A stretch of 64,000 bases of DNA from Escherichia coli (GTDB lineage: Bacteria; Pseudomonadota; Gammaproteobacteria; Enterobacterales; Enterobacteriaceae), in NCBI RefSeq assembly GCF_016903815.1, contig NZ_CP069973.1; one strand, 5' to 3'. Positions 24,700 through 55,241 of the stretch are shown here, piece after piece. Numbering within the stretch: the first letter of the stretch is position 1; each line of letters starts with the position of its first letter. The notes beneath the pieces were generated by a model. It saw only the letters and a program-made list of their open reading frames with translations, was not told where the DNA came from and made no database searches. Made by a program: the position numbers and the translations under genes.

Positions 24700-25038
24700 T
24701 TATTCGCAAAGTGCTGTTGCGGCATCCATTACAGGATCCAAAGGAATTTTTACACCTGCATACTCTGGACTGTCTTTCCAAACAGCATCAATATTGCTCC
24801 CCTCAAGCTTTCCAGACTTTACTCCATCAATAGCAAAACCATTTAATGGGTATCGGTCATCAGTTGCTTTGTCGTATACAAAGGCATACTTACCGTTAAC
24901 GCAAGACACCGTAGCTTTTTCAAAAGTTAACGGCCAATCCTCACCAAACTTAGCGCCATCTAAATCCTGTGTTTTTTCAGCGGCTAAGGAGCCAAAAGAA
25001 AAGGTAAGAAGCATAGCTAAAAAGAGTTTACGTTTCAT
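24700..25038 (-). CDS. Secreted small protein, YebY/DUF2511-like (prophage cargo)
   Basis: The start at MKRKLFLAMLLTFSFGSLAAE provides a signal peptide. The mature part resembles my memory of YebY architecture (...ATVSCVNGKYAFV...YPLNG...LC). The upstream extension to 25110 would overlap cI. Confidence 0.55.
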   Translation of the reverse strand: MKRKLFLAMLLTFSFGSLAAEKTQDLDGAKFGEDWPLTFEKATVSCVNGKYAFVYDKATDDRYPLNGFAIDGVKSGKLEGSNIDAVWKDSPEYAGVKIPLDPVMDAATALCE

Positions 25039-25046
25039 AATTTCCC

Positions 25047-25907
25047 TTATACGTGTTTTTCCAATGTGAAAACTACAACCCCGGCAGGCGTAATGTCGGT
25101 AATGTTGCATTCAAACTCAGCAGACTTATTTGACAACCTGACTTTTCCACCAGGTAAACGAATTACATCAAAAACATCAAGAGCGCCGTCGATATCAATT
25201 AACCAGCGACCATTACTTATATTCGAAGCAGAACAGTCGACAAGCCAAGAGGCAGCTACACCGTCAACAAAAATCAATTCCCCTGAGTTAGAAGGAATCA
25301 TTGAGGGGTCAGGATGCCACGTTCCTGCATCCTTAAGCTCACCAGATTCAAGACGAGATTTTTTAATAGAAAAACCAGATGTGACATCTTCCCTGTTAGC
25401 TCGCATTTGCCCCTTGCCTGTTGCTAACCATTCCAGTGACGTATCGGTATCAAGAGCGCATGTAACAACAACATCACCAGGGAAAAAATCTCGCCTTACC
25501 CATGTGCTAATTGTGCCAGAGGAAATGCCGAGCAAATCACCGAGCTCCTTTTGCATGGTAAAGCCATACGCATCAAGAATCCTACGCAAAACGGTTTTAC
25601 CACCATTCGTCATAATCTCGTCATAAAGCTCTTTGCCTTTTAACTTGCAACTGGCTCGCTCGTGATTTGCATTTGCAAGCTCTCCATTTACAAGCCAATT
25701 GATATCAGCTCCCGTGTCAAGACAACACCTAACTATGACATTGCCAGGTATTGCATCACGCTGAACCCAGCCGCTAACGCTGTGTTTAGCGATACCTAGC
25801 AGGTCAGCCAAATCCTTTTGCATCTTGACCCCATAGGCTGACATTAAGCGTTCCAATACGCCGTTCGTTGCACTAACACGCCACTGAACATCAAGCTCAG
25901 AACTCAT
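25047..25907 (-). CDS. cI: 186-type CI immunity repressor with tandemly duplicated N-terminal HTH domain
   Basis: It is divergent from apl/cII. Two 60-aa segments (aa 17-76 and 106-165) are 31/60 identical by hand count. The C-terminal part resembles the 186 CI oligomerisation domain. Confidence 0.8.
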   Translation of the reverse strand: MSSELDVQWRVSATNGVLERLMSAYGVKMQKDLADLLGIAKHSVSGWVQRDAIPGNVIVRCCLDTGADINWLVNGELANANHERASCKLKGKELYDEIMTNGGKTVLRRILDAYGFTMQKELGDLLGISSGTISTWVRRDFFPGDVVVTCALDTDTSLEWLATGKGQMRANREDVTSGFSIKKSRLESGELKDAGTWHPDPSMIPSNSGELIFVDGVAASWLVDCSASNISNGRWLIDIDGALDVFDVIRLPGGKVRLSNKSAEFECNITDITPAGVVVFTLEKHV

Positions 25908-26028
25908 AAAACCCCCTACAGATAATTTTATGGGTGTTTACAGAAAACTTTTTACGATCTATAGTGGCATTCATCGACCAAGATGCACACCACTGCACTA
26001 CATTTCAAACAACAGGAGATAATGCGAT

Positions 26029-26400
26029 ATGTCAGATGCAAAATCAATCTCGACGCACGACTCGCAAAACTCACAAAATCAAACTGTGCTGCTAAATCCA
26101 ACACAGTTTGATGCCATCGTTACCGCCATGCTGCCAGCTCTACAGACAATGATTCGCTCCGCTATGTCAGACACGATGACTGTGAAAGACTTCGCCGCTA
26201 CTCGCGGTGTTAGCGAGCGTCTGGTCTGGCAATGGCTCGATGAGGGAGTCCTTCTCAAAGCTCCGACCAAAGACTTTTCCAACAAAGAGGAAGCTGCTAA
26301 ACGAAGCCGAACCCTCGTAAACGTAAAAGCATGGCGCGATAAGCTGACTCAACAAGCGATTGATTGTCGCTACATCGACCAGCGCACCGCTCTTAACTGA
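26029..26400 (+). CDS. Apl/Cox-like excisionase-transcriptional switch protein
   Basis: This is the first gene of the early rightward operon, opposite cI. An HTH-like segment (VKDFAATRGVSERLVWQWLDEG) is present. The start codon is uncertain. Confidence 0.6.
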   Translation: MSDAKSISTHDSQNSQNQTVLLNPTQFDAIVTAMLPALQTMIRSAMSDTMTVKDFAATRGVSERLVWQWLDEGVLLKAPTKDFSNKEEAAKRSRTLVNVKAWRDKLTQQAIDCRYIDQRTALN

Positions 26401-26432
26401 ATTTGATTATGCAAGTTAGAGGGAATTTAACC

Positions 26433-30266: not shown

Positions 30267-30286
30267 TACTGTATAAATATACAGTA
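30267..30286. promoter_or_regulatory. LexA (SOS) box
   Basis: TACTGTATAAATATACAGTA is a near-perfect CTGT-N8-ACAG palindrome, 20 nt upstream of ATG 30306. Confidence 0.85.
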
Positions 30287-30305
30287 ACCCTATGGGAGGG
30301 ACTTC

Positions 30306-30488
30306 ATGGTTGGCGAACATTTCAGCCGAACGCAGCAAAAGTGGGCTTGTGTGCAATTTATTGCCGAGGTATCTCTGATTGCAAACTGCAAGCCATCAGA
30401 CTTAAAGCTCGCGCTCACTCTCATTGCAGACCTAGCAAACAGCGAAAATAACGAAACCGAAGATGATAATTTTTATAAGGCTGATTAG
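30306..30488 (+). CDS. Small SOS-controlled protein, possible Tum-like antirepressor
   Basis: The 60-aa ORF has GGGAGGG as SD and lies directly downstream of the LexA box. By position it is analogous to 186 tum, but the sequence identity is not verified. Confidence 0.5.
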   Translation: MVGEHFSRTQQKWACVQFIAEVSLIANCKPSDLKLALTLIADLANSENNETEDDNFYKAD

Positions 30489-30491
30489 ATT

Positions 30492-30722
30492 ATGAGAATC
30501 AATATCACGTTGGATAAAGAGCAAAAATTAGGGCAACAGATCATTGATGCTTTTCAAAATGAAATAACACATCGAGTACAATGCGTTTTTCCTGCAACAA
30601 AAGTTAACGTTAAGAAAGGGTCAATGACTGGTGTAGAGGCTATCGGATTCGATAAAGAGGCGGACAGAGAAACATTAGGCAGCATATTACAAGAGATTTG
30701 GGAAGACGATAGCTGGCGTTAA
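30492..30722 (+). CDS. DinI-family protein
   Basis: MRINITLDKEQKLGQQIIDAFQNEITHRVQCVFP...LGSILQEIWEDDSWR parallels E. coli DinI (MRIEVTIAK...ISEILQETWESADDW). Confidence 0.8.
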   Translation: MRINITLDKEQKLGQQIIDAFQNEITHRVQCVFPATKVNVKKGSMTGVEAIGFDKEADRETLGSILQEIWEDDSWR

Positions 30723-31205: not shown

Positions 31206-32147
31206 TTAATTTATTTTTAATGAATGGTAATCTCGTGAGTTGACCGAAGATTTGAGATAACTGCAATCATTAACCGACAGTATTGCCGCTAATAGGCGAC
31301 ATACCAGTGCCTGCATTTGCAGCAATATATCGTTACCATATTGACTGTTGTTAACACTTGAGAAACCAAGCGGTTGACCAAAAAAAATAGCCTCATGAAA
31401 ATTATCATTGCGGATGCCAGAAATGTTTTTTTTACCTGACACCCATGTGGGGATTGATAACCCATAAATTTTGCACATCCACTTTAATCGCTTGTAATGA
31501 TTTGGCGGTTTTTTATCAGGAGCCTTGTCATGCTCAGCCCACGACAAAGCAAAGCACCCATCAAGTGCCATGTAAAGGTACTGGAATTTTTCAAAAGAAA
31601 GGTATTGTGGGTTTTGAGATAAGAATAGTGCATGCACCACTGCCGCAATTCTTTTGGGGGAGTGCGCATCCTTATGTTTGCCATTTATATAATTAAGAGC
31701 CAGTTCTATGACTTCTTTTTCAGAGCATCCAACGAGAATAAAGTCGGTTAACTTAGTGGGCTTGATAGTGGTTGCATCTAAAAAACCAGCGTCAGTGGTT
31801 GTCAATCTTATTCCCTTGAAAAAAGAAAGGCACCACACAATAAAGTTGAGAGTTTCTAACGAGGATGTATTTTTTAATTTTAGTGTGTGCGTTTTGGGCA
31901 TACTGAATACTCGGTGACTATAAGGCATTGTGGATATGCCACCATTAAGGTTATATACATCTTGGTTTCCAGGGTATATCCAACCTTTCACAACGTTTTT
32001 ATCATTATTAACACGCTCCACTTTCTCATTGAGACCAGGTAAAGTAAGCAAAGAAAATTGTTCAGTCTCAATGTTAACTTCTACTGGATAGTATCCAAAC
32101 TCCGACATAATCTCATTGGGTTGCTGTTCGTCAACTTCACCTTGCAT
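31206..32147 (-). CDS. Hypothetical 313-aa protein with C-terminal RNDNFH (Rx4H, HEPN-like) motif; candidate phage-exclusion factor
   Basis: It is a long AT-rich ORF (22/60 G+C in line 31861). GGAGAAAG lies 2 nt before ATG 32147. The motif is encoded at 31395-31412. It occupies the gpA-to-cos slot where P2 carries tin/old. Confidence 0.7.
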   Translation of the reverse strand: MQGEVDEQQPNEIMSEFGYYPVEVNIETEQFSLLTLPGLNEKVERVNNDKNVVKGWIYPGNQDVYNLNGGISTMPYSHRVFSMPKTHTLKLKNTSSLETLNFIVWCLSFFKGIRLTTTDAGFLDATTIKPTKLTDFILVGCSEKEVIELALNYINGKHKDAHSPKRIAAVVHALFLSQNPQYLSFEKFQYLYMALDGCFALSWAEHDKAPDKKPPNHYKRLKWMCKIYGLSIPTWVSGKKNISGIRNDNFHEAIFFGQPLGFSSVNNSQYGNDILLQMQALVCRLLAAILSVNDCSYLKSSVNSRDYHSLKIN

Positions 32148-32622: not shown

Positions 32623-33627
32623 CTAATTTACATGTATGTAGAGTTCACCGTCGCCAGACCAATCGGGACACTCTAAAACAAGCCCAAACTGCTTGAATAT
32701 TTCATCAATGATTATTGTTATCTCCCGAAAATCACCAAAACCTGTAATGTGCTGGTCATTAAACTTCCCATAAAGATTCTGAAAAGCAATGCCTAATTCT
32801 GATAATTGATATCTTATCTTTGAGTTGGATAGTGTAAGGGATAGCTTTGGATCGTATTCTTTAATATTGATGTTTAGAGAATGGACATAACCCATCGCAT
32901 AAGCATAAGAGTTGATGATTAGCCTGATACGTTTTTTTACTTCGAGATACATGTCATTCAGAGAAATATTACCGTACTTATAACCCCAGATGAGTTTTTC
33001 AATCTCGTCAGATACTTCATTTACAACAGTGTCAAGATTCTCTAAAAATAAATCGATAGTTTCTTGAGGGGCAGACCCCGAAGACATGTAATTAGCGAGA
33101 TATTCAGACCATGCACGCGTGGCTGAGATAAGAAGCGCGCTACCATACTCGTTGACTGTAAAGTTTTGGGCTAAGCATGTTAGTAAGTTTTTTTCATGTA
33201 CGTGCACTAATTCATGGTGAATGCGATGGATGACTGCGAGGTATCCTTCTTCTTTCAGTTTTAAGAAGCTACCATCATTGAAAAGCTCAACAAAAAAATC
33301 AATCGATAGCACAAGGGTATATTCTTCACATAGCCCATCATTGCCAATTTTTGTTACTAACTGCCCGACGGCTGCGCCCTGTTTGCTATTGGTAAATGAA
33401 CTAGGGGATTTGTGTTGGTAAGAGGATGTTACCTTTTGAAGAGCTTCACTGAAGTTATAGGAAACAATCACGCATTTTAATTTGGAGATATCAAGATTGA
33501 GATTTTTTGTTAAAGCTCGGATAGCTTCTAGTGTGAAATTACCGATATTATTTGCTTCTTGCTCAGTAGCGAAACCTTCGAGGGTTATTTTAAAATCAGT
33601 TTCCAAAATATTAATCTCCGCGCCCAT
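32623..33627 (-). CDS. Hypothetical 334-aa protein with HELVH (HExxH) motif; candidate zinc metallopeptidase-like exclusion factor
   Basis: It is a long AT-rich ORF (20/60 G+C in line 32821). HExxH is encoded at 33202-33216 (verified by hand). It lies between cos and the portal gene. Confidence 0.7.
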   Translation of the reverse strand: MGAEINILETDFKITLEGFATEQEANNIGNFTLEAIRALTKNLNLDISKLKCVIVSYNFSEALQKVTSSYQHKSPSSFTNSKQGAAVGQLVTKIGNDGLCEEYTLVLSIDFFVELFNDGSFLKLKEEGYLAVIHRIHHELVHVHEKNLLTCLAQNFTVNEYGSALLISATRAWSEYLANYMSSGSAPQETIDLFLENLDTVVNEVSDEIEKLIWGYKYGNISLNDMYLEVKKRIRLIINSYAYAMGYVHSLNINIKEYDPKLSLTLSNSKIRYQLSELGIAFQNLYGKFNDQHITGFGDFREITIIIDEIFKQFGLVLECPDWSGDGELYIHVN

Positions 33628-42553: not shown

Positions 42554-43435
42554 CTAACCTCGTATTATTCCTCTCGATATTTTTATTGCTGGGTTTTCCT
42601 TTCTTATTTCATTTTTAATTTGCTCATCACAAATTAAATAATCTATGTTTTTTGCTTTAACAAGTTCTTTAACGCTAATGTTAATTGAATTTAATAGATT
42701 TGCATTCCGCATGTTAGCCCCTTCATAAGTAACGGATTTAAAATCACATCCTTTTAATATGCAGCTTTTCATTTCGCTATCTGTAAAATACCCCCCTTCA
42801 AAACTGCAGTTTTCGAAAGTGACATTTTGAAAACATGTATTAAATGCCTTAATATTTCTTAGCTTGCAGTTTTTGAATTTAACACTCTTAACTCTATTGC
42901 CTGTAATATTTAGAGCTTGAATTGTGCAATTATCGAAAGAACAATCTCTAATGTATGATTCGCTCATATTCAAGCCGGTTAAGTCAGCGTCTTTAAAATG
43001 TAAATATTTGATAGTGGACATTTTATCAAGTTCAATCCTTGGAACTTGAATGTTATATATTCCTTTAGCATTTAACTGACGTATGATTTTTATCTTCATA
43101 ATATTCAGTTCTGCAGAAGAATGCTTTGCCAGATTTTCAAGATCTTCAATTAGTTCGTGAATAGCATCTTTATTTTGCCTTTTATTTTCAAAATAGTAAA
43201 GAATCACACCCAAAACAAGAAAGTCTAAAATTGAAGAATTTGCATTAACAAGAAAATTCTCCATGAATTTTGAGTTGTAGTTATCATTATAAACAGACAA
43301 CCCTACTATAAGCCCGGAGTATAAAAAAAAGATACCTATAATATATTTCATATTGCTTATTGTACGCCTAAAAGATGAAGTTCTTTTCATTACTACCTGC
43401 CATATGTTTTGTGTGATTTTCGAATGAGTCAACAC
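42554..43435 (-). CDS. Membrane-anchored pentapeptide-repeat protein (moron at the P2 orf30 position)
   Basis: The ORF is very AT-rich (11/60 G+C in line 42601 versus 34/60 in line 42001). Two hydrophobic segments are present (YIIGIFFLYSGLIVGLSVY and ILDFLVLGVILYYF). About 20 consecutive pentads follow (CSFDN CTIQA LNITG ... CDFKS VTYEG ANMRN). The start may be the internal M at 43390. Confidence 0.75.
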   Translation of the reverse strand: MLTHSKITQNIWQVVMKRTSSFRRTISNMKYIIGIFFLYSGLIVGLSVYNDNYNSKFMENFLVNANSSILDFLVLGVILYYFENKRQNKDAIHELIEDLENLAKHSSAELNIMKIKIIRQLNAKGIYNIQVPRIELDKMSTIKYLHFKDADLTGLNMSESYIRDCSFDNCTIQALNITGNRVKSVKFKNCKLRNIKAFNTCFQNVTFENCSFEGGYFTDSEMKSCILKGCDFKSVTYEGANMRNANLLNSINISVKELVKAKNIDYLICDEQIKNEIRKENPAIKISRGIIRG

Positions 43436-54947: not shown

Positions 54948-55022
54948 AAAAGCAAATCATAACTTGCAAATGCAATTTTAGAGTTTATTATTCCCTCAAA
55001 CGCGCCAGCAGGGGGAAAAATT

Positions 55023-55241
55023 ATGATGCACTGCCCGTTATGCCAAAACGCCGCACATGCTCGTACTAGCCGGTACCTTAGCACCGAAACGAAAGAACGT
55101 TATCACCAATGCCAGAACATAAATTGCGGATGTACATTTATCACTTTTGAGACGCTATCAAGATTCATTGTGAAACCGGGCACTGTTGATCCTGCTCCGC
55201 CACATCCCATCAGAAACCAACAACAGCAACTTTGGCTTTGA
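55023..55241 (+). CDS. ogr: Late gene activator, Ogr/186 B zinc-finger family
   Basis: MMHCPLCQNAAHARTSRYLSTETKERYHQCQNINCGCTF has the CxxC...CxxxxC motif and is 72 aa. Confidence 0.92.
   Translation: MMHCPLCQNAAHARTSRYLSTETKERYHQCQNINCGCTFITFETLSRFIVKPGTVDPAPPHPIRNQQQQLWL

What the first reader, a model, noticed from the sequence alone, without database searches (positions are those of the whole stretch)
25047..25907. 186-type CI repressor carrying a tandem duplication of its HTH domain
The 286-aa repressor contains two consecutive copies of the N-terminal DNA-binding module. Residues 17-76 (VLERLMSAYGVKMQKDLADLLGIAKHSVSGWVQRDAIPGNVIVRCCLDTGADINWLVNGE) and 106-165 (VLRRILDAYGFTMQKELGDLLGISSGTISTWVRRDFFPGDVVVTCALDTDTSLEWLATGK) are 31/60 identical by my hand count. 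They are encoded at about 25680-25859 and 25413-25592. A single 186-CI-like C-terminal domain follows. As I remember it, 186 CI is about 190 aa with one HTH domain and assembles into a multimeric wheel that wraps operator DNA. Doubling the DNA-binding domain per subunit would change operator geometry, and possibly immunity specificity or antirepressor (Tum) sensitivity.
Basis: partly seen in the sequence, partly recalled or inferred. Interest (0 to 1): 0.5.

Follow-up and report, generated by a model that had tools for sequence, protein, structure and literature searches.

The report
Phage repressor with two DNA-binding heads
The immunity repressor of this PSP3-like prophage really does carry two DNA-binding heads; this is the normal form in a widespread phage group, and comparing 76 relatives suggests that one head sets immunity specificity at the lytic promoter while the other, nearly invariant head reads a conserved palindrome at three distant control sites.

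Summary
ORF 25047-25907 (-) encodes a 286-aa protein with two Phage_CI_repr HTH domains and one 186-type C-terminal domain. The two copies are 31/60 identical, and an internal BLASTP gives E = 2e-23. The upstream copy is translated: pN is 0.01 against pS 0.37 in close relatives, and the internal Met99 is not conserved.

It is not rare. The protein is 98% identical to the CI of the long-sequenced phage PSP3. The architecture is standard in PSP3-like prophages of about 25 genera of Enterobacterales, and it arose again independently in Enterobacter and Shewanella.

The new part is this. HTH1 is hypervariable and forms a swappable cassette (about 25600-25967) with the 60 bp of pR operator DNA. HTH2 is almost invariant and is the orthologue of the single HTH of 186-type repressors. 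A conserved palindrome, TTGCAAATGCAA, sits at the positions of the 186 CI sites: FL (inside cI, in the DNA encoding the linker between the two HTH domains) and pB (the ogr promoter). A degenerate copy sits at the FR position. Single-HTH relatives with an HTH2-like helix use the same palindrome family as their pR operator.

My best model (inferred, confidence about 0.6) is that HTH1 reads type-specific pR operators and HTH2 reads the conserved distal sites. I class this as a new variant of a known kind.

The parts
25047..25907 (-). cI gene: 286-aa two-HTH, 186-type immunity repressor (stop codon included)
   Evidence: ORF list. Pfam 2x PF07022 + PF16452. 100% identical to the vB_EcoM-613R3 cI and 98.3% to PSP3 cI.
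25680..25859 (-). HTH1 (residues 17-76): the extra, hypervariable HTH domain and proposed immunity-specificity determinant
   Evidence: Translation checked. 36 distinct recognition segments in 76 loci, mean entropy 1.19 bits. 70 of 75 unique HTH1 domains form one pure clade. pN 0.01 / pS 0.37 vs L002/L003.
25593..25679 (-). Linker 1 (residues 77-105): a disordered stretch followed by a short helix that is homologous to the N-terminus of the single-HTH relatives
   Evidence: AF2 pLDDT < 50 for residues 77-86, helix at 92-100. Single-HTH proteins start with MQLDELEGGK, against LYDEIMTNGGK here.
25667..25678 (.). FL-like operator candidate: palindrome TTGCAAATGCAA embedded in codons 77-80 of cI
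   Evidence: Exact 12-mer. The same site is present in 42/76 loci exactly and in 62/76 with at most 1 mismatch, including versions in a shifted reading frame with a different peptide. Ala codons here are GCA in 98/106 cases vs 358/1672 elsewhere, p = 1e-51; this is the strongest third-position conservation in the gene. The position matches 186 FL, which lies inside cI.
25413..25592 (-). HTH2 (residues 106-165): nearly invariant HTH, orthologue of the single HTH of 186-type CI
   Evidence: Single-HTH representatives align to query 100-285. Mean entropy 0.56 bits, helix ISSGTISTWVRR almost constant. dN/dS 0.057. It interleaves with single-HTH domains in the tree.
25086..25370 (-). C-terminal oligomerisation domain (Phage_CI_C, residues 180-274)
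   Evidence: Pfam E = 1.3e-20. The model matches the 186 CI CTD (2fkd_A) with TM 0.89 and rmsd 1.6 A.
25908..25967 (.). Type-specific pR operator block, which together with HTH1 forms the variable cassette. It holds two 13-bp repeats, TACAGATAATTTT (25917-25929) and TACAGAAAACTTT (25939-25951), 22 bp apart.
   Evidence: Repeats found (D15, 10/12 at offset 22, 2 of 100 shuffles). Same position and size as the three annotated CI sites at 186 pR. Identity to L004/L005 falls to 30-53% here, against 81-100% on the apl side. Mantel r = 0.71 with the HTH1 core.
25937..25965 (+). pR candidate (lytic promoter): -35 TTTACA, 17 nt spacer, -10 TATAGT
   Evidence: Promoter scan, 10/12 matches. -35 and -10 are conserved across 54 loci.
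26019..26047 (-). pL candidate (lysogenic promoter facing pR): -35 TTGATT, 17 nt spacer, -10 CATTAT. Weak, read by eye.
   Evidence: Sequence. The block is conserved in related loci. Only 8/12 matches, below the scan threshold. Proposed by analogy with the face-to-face pR/pL of 186.
26029..26400 (+). apl/cox analogue (123 aa, PSP3 gp30 type), first gene of the lytic operon
   Evidence: ORF. No Pfam hit. phrog_3554 E = 8e-75 and a weak Cox-like excisionase hit, phrog_575 E = 8e-5.
26401..26415 (.). FR-like operator candidate: degenerate palindrome ATTTGATTATGCAAG at the junction of the apl analogue and cII
   Evidence: 80% match to the FL-like site (D8). ACTTGCATAATCAA is conserved in L002-L005 and CTTGCAAAAGCAA in L009. 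The position corresponds to 186 FR. Six exact-pattern hits fall in this zone across the loci.
54964..54975 (.). pB-like operator candidate: palindrome TTGCAAATGCAA overlapping the -35 of the promoter of the ogr/B-type late activator gene (55023-55241)
   Evidence: Exact 12-mer. Promoter: -35 TTGCAA at 54964, 16 nt, -10 TATTAT. ogr located at 55023-55238 by tblastn. The site is conserved in PSP3, Midge and SW9. 186 CI has two annotated sites on pB.

Best explanation
This is the functional immunity repressor of a PSP3-like (Eganvirus) prophage of E. coli. It is a 186-type CI in which an ancient tandem duplication produced two HTH domains that have since divided the work.

Shown:
- Both domains are translated and are under purifying selection.
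- HTH2 is the orthologue of the single HTH of 186-type repressors and is almost invariant across about 25 genera.
- HTH1 is a separate, hypervariable clade. It travels as one recombination cassette with the 60 bp of operator DNA at pR.
- A conserved palindrome, T[TC]GCA-N2-3-TGC[AG]A, lies at the positions where 186 CI has its FL and pB sites, with a degenerate copy at the FR position. One copy is embedded in the DNA that encodes the HTH1-HTH2 linker.

Inferred:
- HTH1 pairs bind the type-specific repeats that cover the pR -35 region, spaced two helical turns apart as at 186 pR, and so set immunity specificity.
- HTH2 pairs bind the conserved palindromes at FL, FR and the ogr promoter. This gives looping and cooperativity at the switch and repression of the late activator.
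- The 186-like C-terminal domain assembles the subunits into a higher-order particle that can hold both kinds of site at once.

In 186, one HTH is reported to read two distinct recognition sequences. Here the two jobs would be split between two domains.
For: Architecture and translation:
- establish the two domains.
- HTH1 has pN 0.01 against pS 0.37 in comparison with L002/L003. Pooled dN/dS is 0.118 for HTH1 and 0.057 for HTH2.
- Met99 is not conserved.

Orthology:
- Single-HTH representatives align to residues 100-285.
- Single-HTH domains are 47% identical to HTH2 and 36% to HTH1.
- 70 of 75 unique HTH1 domains form one pure clade, while HTH2 interleaves with single-HTH domains.

Division of variability:
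- There are 51 distinct HTH1 cores, against a nearly constant HTH2 helix ISSGTISTWVRR.

Cassette:
- Window vs L004/L005 is 81-100% identical from 27107 down to about 25968, 30-76% over 25967 to about 25548, then mostly 73-95% again through HTH2 and most of the CTD; for L004 this continues through DUF2511 and int, whereas for L005 identity falls to 30-48% from about 25007.
- The pattern is the reverse for L002/L003.
- Identity of the operator block correlates with the HTH1 core at r = 0.71 (partial r = 0.68 given the adjacent DNA block, 0.60 given the CTD). The correlation is 0.34 with HTH2 and 0.30 with the adjacent DNA block.
- The same HTH1 type and operator motif occur in different apl-side backgrounds (L008 vs L054; L022 vs L061).

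Palindrome:
- Two exact copies of TTGCAAATGCAA occur in the window, at the FL-like and pB-like positions.
- The degenerate pattern has 3 hits against 0.48 expected.
- In the 76 loci there are 72 hits against 10 in shuffled sequence, and 70 of them fall in three positional clusters.
- The FL-like site is present in 62/76 loci with at most 1 mismatch.
- It is kept at the DNA level across different peptides and reading registers, and codon usage gives p = 1e-51.
- The pB site is conserved in phages with different HTH1 types and overlaps the -35.

Link between HTH2 and the palindrome:
- Single-HTH relatives whose only HTH is HTH2-like (88% identical to L074 HTH2) carry CTCGCAAATGCGAG, CTTGCAAAATCAAG or CTTGCAAAGTCAAG in the pR spacer.

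186 layout for comparison:
- pR with 3 sites, FL inside cI, FR at the apl/cII junction, pB with 2 sites.
- Operators two turns apart, on a wheel of seven dimers (PMC3675496).
- Two site types (PMC1904263; A-type sites at pB).

Fold:
- The CTD matches the 186 CTD with TM 0.89.
Against: - Nothing here shows binding. Every domain-to-site assignment is inferred from conservation, position and co-variation.
- The link between HTH1 and the operator block is confounded by physical linkage, because the two are adjacent. The partial Mantel tests reduce this problem but do not remove it.
- The window's own pR repeats are only modestly significant (2 of 100 shuffles in an 80-nt region). The motif is not enriched over the whole window.
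- The split is not clean. In the Kosakonia and Serratia types the HTH2-type palindrome also sits in the pR spacer, and most types keep a half-site, GATCGCAAA, next to the -10. HTH2 may therefore also act at pR.
- The FR-like site is degenerate.
- 186 CI reads two kinds of site with one HTH, so one domain here could in principle do the same.
- AF2 gives no fixed arrangement of the domains (pTM 0.39), so the geometry is unconstrained.
- Whether this CTD forms a 14-mer wheel was not tested.
Confidence: 0.6

Rival explanations
1. Single-chain pseudo-dimer. HTH1 and HTH2 of one subunit bind side by side to one asymmetric, composite operator at pR. HTH2 sits on the conserved half-site next to the -10 (GATCGCAAA) and HTH1 on the variable half next to the -35, so each monomer does what a 186 CI dimer does. 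This could coexist with HTH2 pairs binding the distal palindromes.
For: In 39 of 54 unique loci the half next to the -10 matches TCGCA with at most 1 mismatch, while the half next to the -35 is variable. The pR units repeat every 21-22 bp as direct repeats in several types. The long flexible linker between the domains would allow it. The window has GATCGTAAA at this position.
Against: Several HTH1 types have symmetric palindromes in the pR spacer (ACACGTAACGTGT in L029, ATACACAAATGTAT in L040), which fits pairs of like domains. The conserved GATCG abuts the -10 and lies on the conserved side of the recombination boundary, so its conservation may reflect the promoter or shared ancestry. AF2 predicts no HTH1-HTH2 packing (pTM 0.39).
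Confidence: 0.2
2. HTH2 no longer binds DNA specifically. It is conserved as an architectural spacer or as the docking surface for a conserved partner, for example the SOS-induced antirepressor. HTH1 alone reads the operators, and the conserved palindromes are bound by another factor (the Apl analogue, CII or a host protein).
For: HTH2 is conserved on the whole surface of helix 3, which would also fit a protein partner. A conserved LexA-box operon with a 60-aa ORF of unknown function replaces the antirepressor half of 186 Tum. In the 186 crystal dimer the NTDs pack in a way said to be unlikely to allow DNA binding (PMC3675496).
Against: Single-HTH relatives have only an HTH2-like domain and must bind DNA with it. 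Their pR spacer carries the same palindrome family. The palindromes lie exactly where 186 CI, not Apl or CII, has its FL, FR and pB sites. Palindrome and HTH2 are both constant while HTH1 varies.
Confidence: 0.12
3. The annotated ORF is too long. Translation really starts internally, near Met99, giving a 186-like 188-aa protein, and the upstream copy is untranslated or decaying.
For: Residues 92-105 resemble the N-terminus of the single-HTH relatives (MQLDELEGGK vs LYDEIMTNGGK).
Against: HTH1 has pN 0.01 against pS 0.37 in close relatives, and dN/dS is 0.118 overall. The frame is open and both domains are intact in 76 of the 81 sequences examined (80 loci plus the window) from about 25 genera. 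Met99 is Leu or Val in many orthologues. The annotated start has a G-rich Shine-Dalgarno-like stretch (GGGGG) about 4 nt upstream. HTH1 folds confidently in AF2 (pLDDT about 80).
Confidence: 0.02

Closest known systems
Salmonella phage PSP3 CI (NP_958086, orf29) and the CI proteins of SEN1, vB_EcoM-613R3, Midge, SW9 and SI22
   Same: Same protein family and architecture. Identity is 100% to 613R3, 98.3% to PSP3, 97.6% to SEN1, and 73-77% to Midge, SW9 and SI22. The gene order int-DUF2511-cI / apl-analogue-cII-fil is the same.
   Different: Essentially none for PSP3. Midge, SW9 and SI22 differ mainly in HTH1 and the pR operator block. I found no published analysis of the duplication: Nilsson et al. 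2011 (PMC3448106) described PsP3 CI only as having 'a longer C-terminal domain' than 186 CI.
Coliphage 186 CI (PDB 2fjr, 2fkd)
   Same: HTH of family PF07022. CTD fold matches with TM 0.89. Candidate face-to-face pR/pL. An operator block between the cI start codon and the pR -10. Distal sites inside cI and at the apl/cII junction, and a site on the promoter of the late activator.
   Different: 186 CI has one HTH per subunit, and that HTH is reported to recognise two distinct operator sequences (Shearwin, Dodd & Egan 2002; seen only as a reference). The protein here has two HTHs per subunit, about 32% identity to 186 CI, different operator sequences (TTGCA-AA-TGCAA vs TTCAC-N5-GTGAA) and a different Apl analogue.
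Single-HTH CI proteins with an HTH2-like helix (Rahnella, Ewingella and Chimaeribacter prophages; L077-L080, 196 aa)
   Same: Their HTH is up to 88% identical to HTH2, with the same recognition helix, SSGTISTWVRR. Linker and CTD are homologous. A palindrome of the same family is present.
   Different: They lack HTH1. The palindrome sits in the pR spacer, where it must act as the immunity operator.
Independent two-HTH CI lineages (Enterobacter P0137/P0270, 313 aa; Shewanella P0184/P0196)
   Same: Same domain order: HTH, HTH, CI_C.
   Different: Their two HTHs are each other's closest relatives (63% and 69% identity), so they come from separate and younger duplications.
Monomeric mycobacteriophage immunity repressor that uses two domains on an asymmetric site (PMC9283540)
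   Same: A phage immunity repressor that places two DNA-binding modules of one chain on DNA (title and abstract only).
   Different: Unrelated family, monomeric, and the two modules are not duplicates. Relevant only to the pseudo-dimer rival explanation.

Membership tests
186-type CI repressor (Phage_CI_repr + Phage_CI_C) | N-terminal HTH domain of family PF07022 | tested here: met
   E = 1.3e-52, two stretches. 2fjr aligns at E = 1e-21.
186-type CI repressor (Phage_CI_repr + Phage_CI_C) | C-terminal beta-rich oligomerisation domain PF16452 with the 186 CTD fold | tested here: met
   Pfam E = 1.3e-20. Foldseek against 2fkd_A: TM 0.89, rmsd 1.6 A over 107 columns.
186-type CI repressor (Phage_CI_repr + Phage_CI_C) | One HTH domain per subunit (about 190 aa) | tested here: not met
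   Two HTH domains, 286 aa. 77 of the 150 best cluster representatives have the one-HTH form and 14 the two-HTH form.
186-type CI repressor (Phage_CI_repr + Phage_CI_C) | First gene of the leftward lysogenic operon (cI-int), facing a rightward apl-cII lytic operon with convergent pR and pL | tested here: met
   Gene order. pR scan hit. pL was read only by eye at 8/12 matches, so the convergent arrangement is inferred.
186-type CI repressor (Phage_CI_repr + Phage_CI_C) | Operators at pR phased two helical turns apart | tested here: inconclusive
   Two 13-bp repeats lie 22 bp apart, and a possible weak third unit lies over the -10. Offsets of 21-22 bp are the commonest among the loci (20 of 75). 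No binding data.
186-type CI repressor (Phage_CI_repr + Phage_CI_C) | Distal FL/FR sites flanking the switch and CI sites on the late-activator promoter pB | tested here: met
   Met at the sequence level only. Conserved palindromes lie at 25667-25678 and 54964-54975, and a degenerate one at 26401-26415, in positions matching the 186 annotation.
186-type CI repressor (Phage_CI_repr + Phage_CI_C) | Assembly into a 14-mer wheel (seven dimers) that wraps DNA | not testable with these tools
   Only a monomer model was made. The CTD fold is conserved, but the interfaces were not examined.
186-type CI repressor (Phage_CI_repr + Phage_CI_C) | Inactivation by a LexA-controlled antirepressor (Tum) rather than by RecA-mediated cleavage | tested here: inconclusive
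   LexA box CTGTATAAATATACAG at 30269-30284. The DinI-like ORF is 70% identical to Tum residues 71-146. The preceding 60-aa ORF has no similarity to the Tum N-terminal half.
PSP3-type two-HTH CI | HTH1-linker-HTH2-linker-CTD architecture, with HTH1 belonging to the PSP3-type HTH1 clade | tested here: met
   98.3% identity to PSP3 CI. The window's HTH1 groups with L002, L003 and L006. 70/75 unique HTH1 domains form one clade.

The most novel reading that the evidence does not exclude
Subfunctionalisation after duplication. The two classes of operator that 186 CI reads with a single dual-specificity HTH are read in PSP3-type phages by two dedicated domains. HTH1 and the 60-bp pR operator block form a minimal, horizontally exchangeable immunity cassette. 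HTH2 is frozen because its targets (FL, FR and the late-activator promoter) lie in conserved parts of the genome. One of those targets is written into the codons of the repressor's own inter-domain linker. The same solution evolved at least three times: in the PSP3 type, in Enterobacter and in Shewanella.
Probability: 0.5. Interest if true: 0.65.

Novelty: new variant of a known kind. Interest (0 to 1): 0.5.

Why it matters
The 186 switch is one of the few deeply modelled alternatives to lambda. A long-standing oddity is that its single HTH is reported to bind two unrelated operator sequences. A natural relative that appears to split those two jobs between two domains is a ready-made system for dissecting them: domain deletions, helix swaps and operator swaps are all straightforward. 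It also suggests how new immunity types can arise by exchanging a cassette of about 370 bp (operators plus one HTH) without disturbing looping sites, control of the late genes, or oligomerisation. That is relevant to predicting superinfection immunity among the many PSP3-like prophages of E. coli, Klebsiella, Enterobacter and Salmonella. The operator embedded in the linker codons is a clear example of overlapping protein and DNA codes. On the practical side, annotation pipelines name all of these proteins simply 'phage repressor protein CI', which hides the difference.

Tried and rejected
1. A third copy of the pR repeat at 26141 (CTACAGACAAT) as a flanking operator. Rejected: the sequence lies in coding DNA and is the same in loci with different HTH1 types. 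The motif is not enriched in the window.
2. A TCGCA..TGCGA palindrome (Kosakonia/Serratia type) in the window's switch region. None was found; the window uses TTGCA..TGCAA instead.
3. An internal start at Met99. Rejected.
4. AF2, to obtain the HTH1/HTH2 geometry. The domains fold, but pTM is 0.39 and the linkers are disordered, so no arrangement can be read. Foldseek returned only 186 CI, the lambda-186 hybrid and LexA-like C-terminal domains, and no tandem-HTH template.
5. Best-direct-repeat scan of the 80 nt upstream of the called start codons. It was noisy because my automatic start-codon choice was wrong for some loci (for example the Serratia group). I re-anchored on the pR -10 and -35.
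6. The conserved block between pR and pL (TGCA-N6-TGCAT, 25983-26000) as an HTH2 target. Set aside: it occupies the position of the Apl sites of 186 and comes in at least two alternative versions that track the apl side, not HTH2.
7. Covariation between HTH2 helix variants and palindrome variants. There is too little variation in either to test.
8. Literature. I found no paper describing a two-HTH 186-type CI. The key 186 papers (Dodd & Egan 1996, Shearwin et al. 2002, Dodd & Egan 2002) are not held.
9. PADLOC on three cargo ORFs and on the 60-aa ORF. No hits.
Full report
**1.

The ORF at 25047-25907 on the minus strand is 286 codons long, with an ATG start preceded by a G-rich Shine-Dalgarno-like stretch (GGGGG). 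BLASTP of the first 93 residues against the rest gives 38/84 identities, E = 2e-23. Pfam finds two stretches of PF07022 (Phage_CI_repr, E = 1.3e-52) and one PF16452 (Phage_CI_C, residues 180-274). The crystal-structure sequence of 186 CI aligns only to residues 105-279. The second HTH plus the C-terminal domain therefore corresponds to a whole 186 CI, and the first HTH is extra. A 47-nt stretch of 70% DNA identity at an offset of 89 codons is a remnant of the duplication.

**2. Where the window comes from, and how common the architecture is**

The region is a P2/186-like prophage in the E. coli chromosome beside yfiB. It is 100% identical over 3.9 kb to several complete genomes, and 174 of 5,426 E. 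coli genomes have a match to some part of it. The protein is 100% identical to the cI of phage vB_EcoM-613R3, 98.3% to that of Salmonella phage PSP3, and 97.6% to that of SEN1. It is 73-77% identical to the cI of Midge, SW9, SI22 and RCIP0057.

In the 5.8-billion-protein collection, all 120 listed hits (the best of 731) have the two-HTH length. Among the 150 best cluster representatives at 50% identity, 77 have one HTH plus the CTD, and 14 have two HTHs plus the CTD. There are also truncated two-HTH fragments, one protein with three HTHs and one with six. A scan of one genome per species returned 80 loci; 76 of the 81 sequences examined (80 loci plus the window) encode an intact two-HTH CI, in about 25 genera of Enterobacterales.

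I found no paper that describes it. Nilsson et al. 2011 noted only that PsP3 CI has 'a longer C-terminal domain' than 186 CI (PMC3448106). Further searches found nothing.

**3. The upstream copy is translated**

Against the closest loci (L002, L003), HTH1 has pN = 0.01 and pS = 0.37. Pooled over 29 loci, dN/dS is 0.118 for HTH1, 0.057 for HTH2 and 0.127 for the CTD. Met99, the only plausible internal start, is Leu or Val in many orthologues. AlphaFold2 folds three modules confidently (mean pLDDT 80) joined by disordered linkers at residues 77-86 and 171-177. With pTM at 0.39, no fixed packing of the domains is predicted. The modelled CTD matches the 186 CTD with TM 0.89.

**4. The two domains have very different evolutionary behaviour**

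Single-HTH family members align to residues 100-285. Their HTH is on average 47% identical to HTH2 and 36% to HTH1. In a neighbour-joining tree, 70 of 75 unique HTH1 domains form one pure clade, while HTH2 domains interleave with single-HTH domains. HTH2 is therefore the orthologue of the ancestral HTH, and the PSP3-type HTH1 arose once.

Separate, younger duplications exist in Enterobacter (the two HTHs are 63% identical) and in Shewanella (69%).

Across the 76 loci the HTH2 recognition helix is almost constant (ISSGTISTWVRR; mean entropy 0.56 bits per position). HTH1 is hypervariable, with 51 distinct 27-residue cores and mean entropy 1.19 bits.

**5. HTH1 and the pR operator block form an exchangeable cassette**

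A sliding comparison of the window with L004 and L005 (about 75% identical CI) gives three zones:

- 81-100% DNA identity from cII down to the pR -10 (about 25968);
- 30-76% over 25967 to about 25548, which covers the pR -35 region, the cI start, HTH1 and linker 1;
- mostly 73-95% again through HTH2 and most of the CTD; for L004 this continues through DUF2511 and int, whereas for L005 identity falls to 30-48% from about 25007.

L002 and L003 show the opposite pattern.

The variable DNA, 25908-25967, has the same position and size as the three annotated CI sites at 186 pR. It holds two 13-bp repeats 22 bp apart, TACAGATAATTTT and TACAGAAAACTTT. One of them overlaps the -35 of the pR candidate TTTACA-17-TATAGT. 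Other HTH1 types carry different repeats or palindromes at the same place, again with 21-22 bp phasing. In 186 the pR operators are two helical turns apart (PMC3675496).

Over 54 unique loci, identity of this 45-nt block correlates with identity of the HTH1 core at r = 0.71. The partial correlation is 0.68 given the adjacent DNA block and 0.60 given the CTD. The block correlates much less with HTH2 (0.34), the CTD (0.51) or the immediately adjacent DNA (0.30). The same HTH1 type and operator motif also occur next to different versions of the apl-side block. Physical linkage contributes to this signal, but the pattern is what an immunity module should look like.

**6. A conserved palindrome marks the 186-type distal sites**

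The exact 12-mer TTGCAAATGCAA occurs twice in the 64-kb window.

- The first copy is at 25667-25678, inside cI, in codons 77-80 of the disordered HTH1-HTH2 linker. It lies about 267 bp from the pR -35, which matches the placement of 186 FL inside cI.
- The second copy is at 54964-54975. It overlaps the -35 of a promoter (TTGCAA-16-TATTAT) 32 bp upstream of the ogr/B-type late-activator gene. This is the counterpart of pB, on which 186 CI has two annotated sites.

The ogr-promoter copy is conserved in PSP3, Midge and SW9.

Across the 76 loci, the pattern T[TC]GCA-N2-3-TGC[AG]A is found 72 times, against 10 times in shuffled sequence. Of these hits:

- 42 lie at the FL-like position;
- 22 lie in the pR spacer (Kosakonia and Serratia types);
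- 6 lie in the FR-like zone;
- 2 lie elsewhere.

With one mismatch allowed, 62 of 76 loci have the FL-like site.

The constraint acts on the DNA, not on the peptide. The palindrome is kept under LANAN, FANAK and KFANAS, and it also appears 9 nt downstream in a different register under NSHLQ. Ala codons at these positions are GCA in 98 of 106 cases, against 358 of 1,672 elsewhere in the same genes (p = 1e-51). Residues 76-80 are the strongest five-codon window of third-position conservation in the gene.

A degenerate copy, ATTTGATTATGCAAG at 26401-26415, sits at the junction of the apl analogue and cII, where 186 has FR. It is conserved in related loci.

**7. Linking HTH2 to the palindrome**

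Four loci (Rahnella, Ewingella, Chimaeribacter) encode 196-aa single-HTH repressors. Their only HTH carries the HTH2 helix and is up to 88% identical to HTH2. Their pR spacers hold CTCGCAAATGCGAG, CTTGCAAAATCAAG or CTTGCAAAGTCAAG. That domain must bind DNA, and the obvious operator belongs to the same palindrome family. The palindrome and HTH2 are both constant while HTH1 varies, and the palindromes lie at CI-site positions of 186. I therefore infer that HTH2 reads them.

This is an inference; nothing here demonstrates binding.

**8. Model and its limits**

My best reading (confidence about 0.6) has four parts:

- HTH1 pairs bind the type-specific pR units and set immunity.
- HTH2 pairs bind FL, FR and the ogr promoter.
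- The 186-like CTD multimerises the protein, so that one particle can hold both kinds of site.
- The two recognition tasks that 186 CI is reported to perform with one HTH are split between two domains. (The relevant paper is Shearwin, Dodd & Egan 2002, seen only as a reference. [quoted passage not shown])

The split is not absolute. Some types keep the HTH2-type palindrome in the pR spacer, and most keep a half-site, GATCGCAAA, beside the -10. A composite-operator or pseudo-dimer mode at pR therefore remains possible (about 0.2). A non-DNA-binding HTH2 is less likely (about 0.12). A mis-annotated start is effectively excluded.

**9. Verdict**

The finding is real and correctly interpreted, but the architecture is ordinary for PSP3-like phages and has been in the databases since PSP3 was sequenced. 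What appears not to have been described is the division of labour, the HTH1-operator cassette, the operator embedded in the linker codons, and the recurrence of the duplication. I rate it a new variant of a known kind. Interest is moderate, about 0.5, and highest for people who work on the 186 switch and on prophage immunity.

Noticed in passing
window 30269-30722: A perfect LexA box (CTGTATAAATATACAG, 30269-30284) precedes a 60-aa ORF (30306-30485; phrog_1993, unknown function) and a 76-aa DinI-like ORF (30492-30722). The DinI-like ORF is 70% identical to residues 71-146 of 186 Tum. The 60-aa ORF has no similarity to the antirepressor half of Tum. It may be the antirepressor for the two-HTH CI, expressed as a separate protein. 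The same pair of ORFs is present in Midge and SW9.
   Followed up: partly
window 30379-30391: A third match to the palindrome family, TTGCAAACTGCAA (3-nt spacer), lies inside the 60-aa ORF of the LexA-box operon. It has an identical 30-nt context in Midge and SW9. It is unclear whether this is a CI site or simply conserved coding sequence.
   Followed up: no
window 24700-25038 (-): A DUF2511 (YebY-like) gene with an apparent signal peptide lies between cI and int, inside the lysogenic operon. It is a likely lysogenic-conversion moron and is also present in PSP3, Midge and SW9.
   Followed up: no
window 26029-26400 (+) and 25968-26012: The Apl/Cox analogue is 123 aa with no Pfam hit and only a weak Cox-like PHROG match over residues 48-110. 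The block between the pR and pL start sites (TGCA-N6-TGCAT and GTGGTGTG) is conserved together with this gene. It exists in at least two alternative versions among related loci, and presumably holds the binding sites of this protein.
   Followed up: partly
P0214 (JGI metagenome, 525 aa) and P0236 (323 aa): Two proteins carry six and three copies, respectively, of this HTH domain and have no CI C-terminal domain. Repeat expansion of the domain therefore goes beyond two copies.
   Followed up: no
P0137/P0270 (Enterobacter, 313 aa); P0184/P0196 (Shewanella, 315-334 aa): These are independent, younger tandem duplications of the CI HTH: the two copies are 63% and 69% identical and are each other's nearest relatives. 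Their operators were not examined.
   Followed up: partly
window 31209-32147 (-), 32626-33606 (-), 42557-43390 (-): Three reverse-oriented cargo ORFs interrupt the P2-like gene order: two hypothetical proteins between the tum-like operon and the portal gene, and a pentapeptide-repeat protein inside the tail/baseplate cluster. None gave a PADLOC hit.
   Followed up: partly
L026 (Pseudomonas lundensis record) and L076 (Vagococcus sp. record): Two-HTH CI loci typical of Serratia and Kosakonia prophages appear in genome records labelled as non-Enterobacterales. These are probably contaminated assemblies or mislabelled contigs.
   Followed up: no
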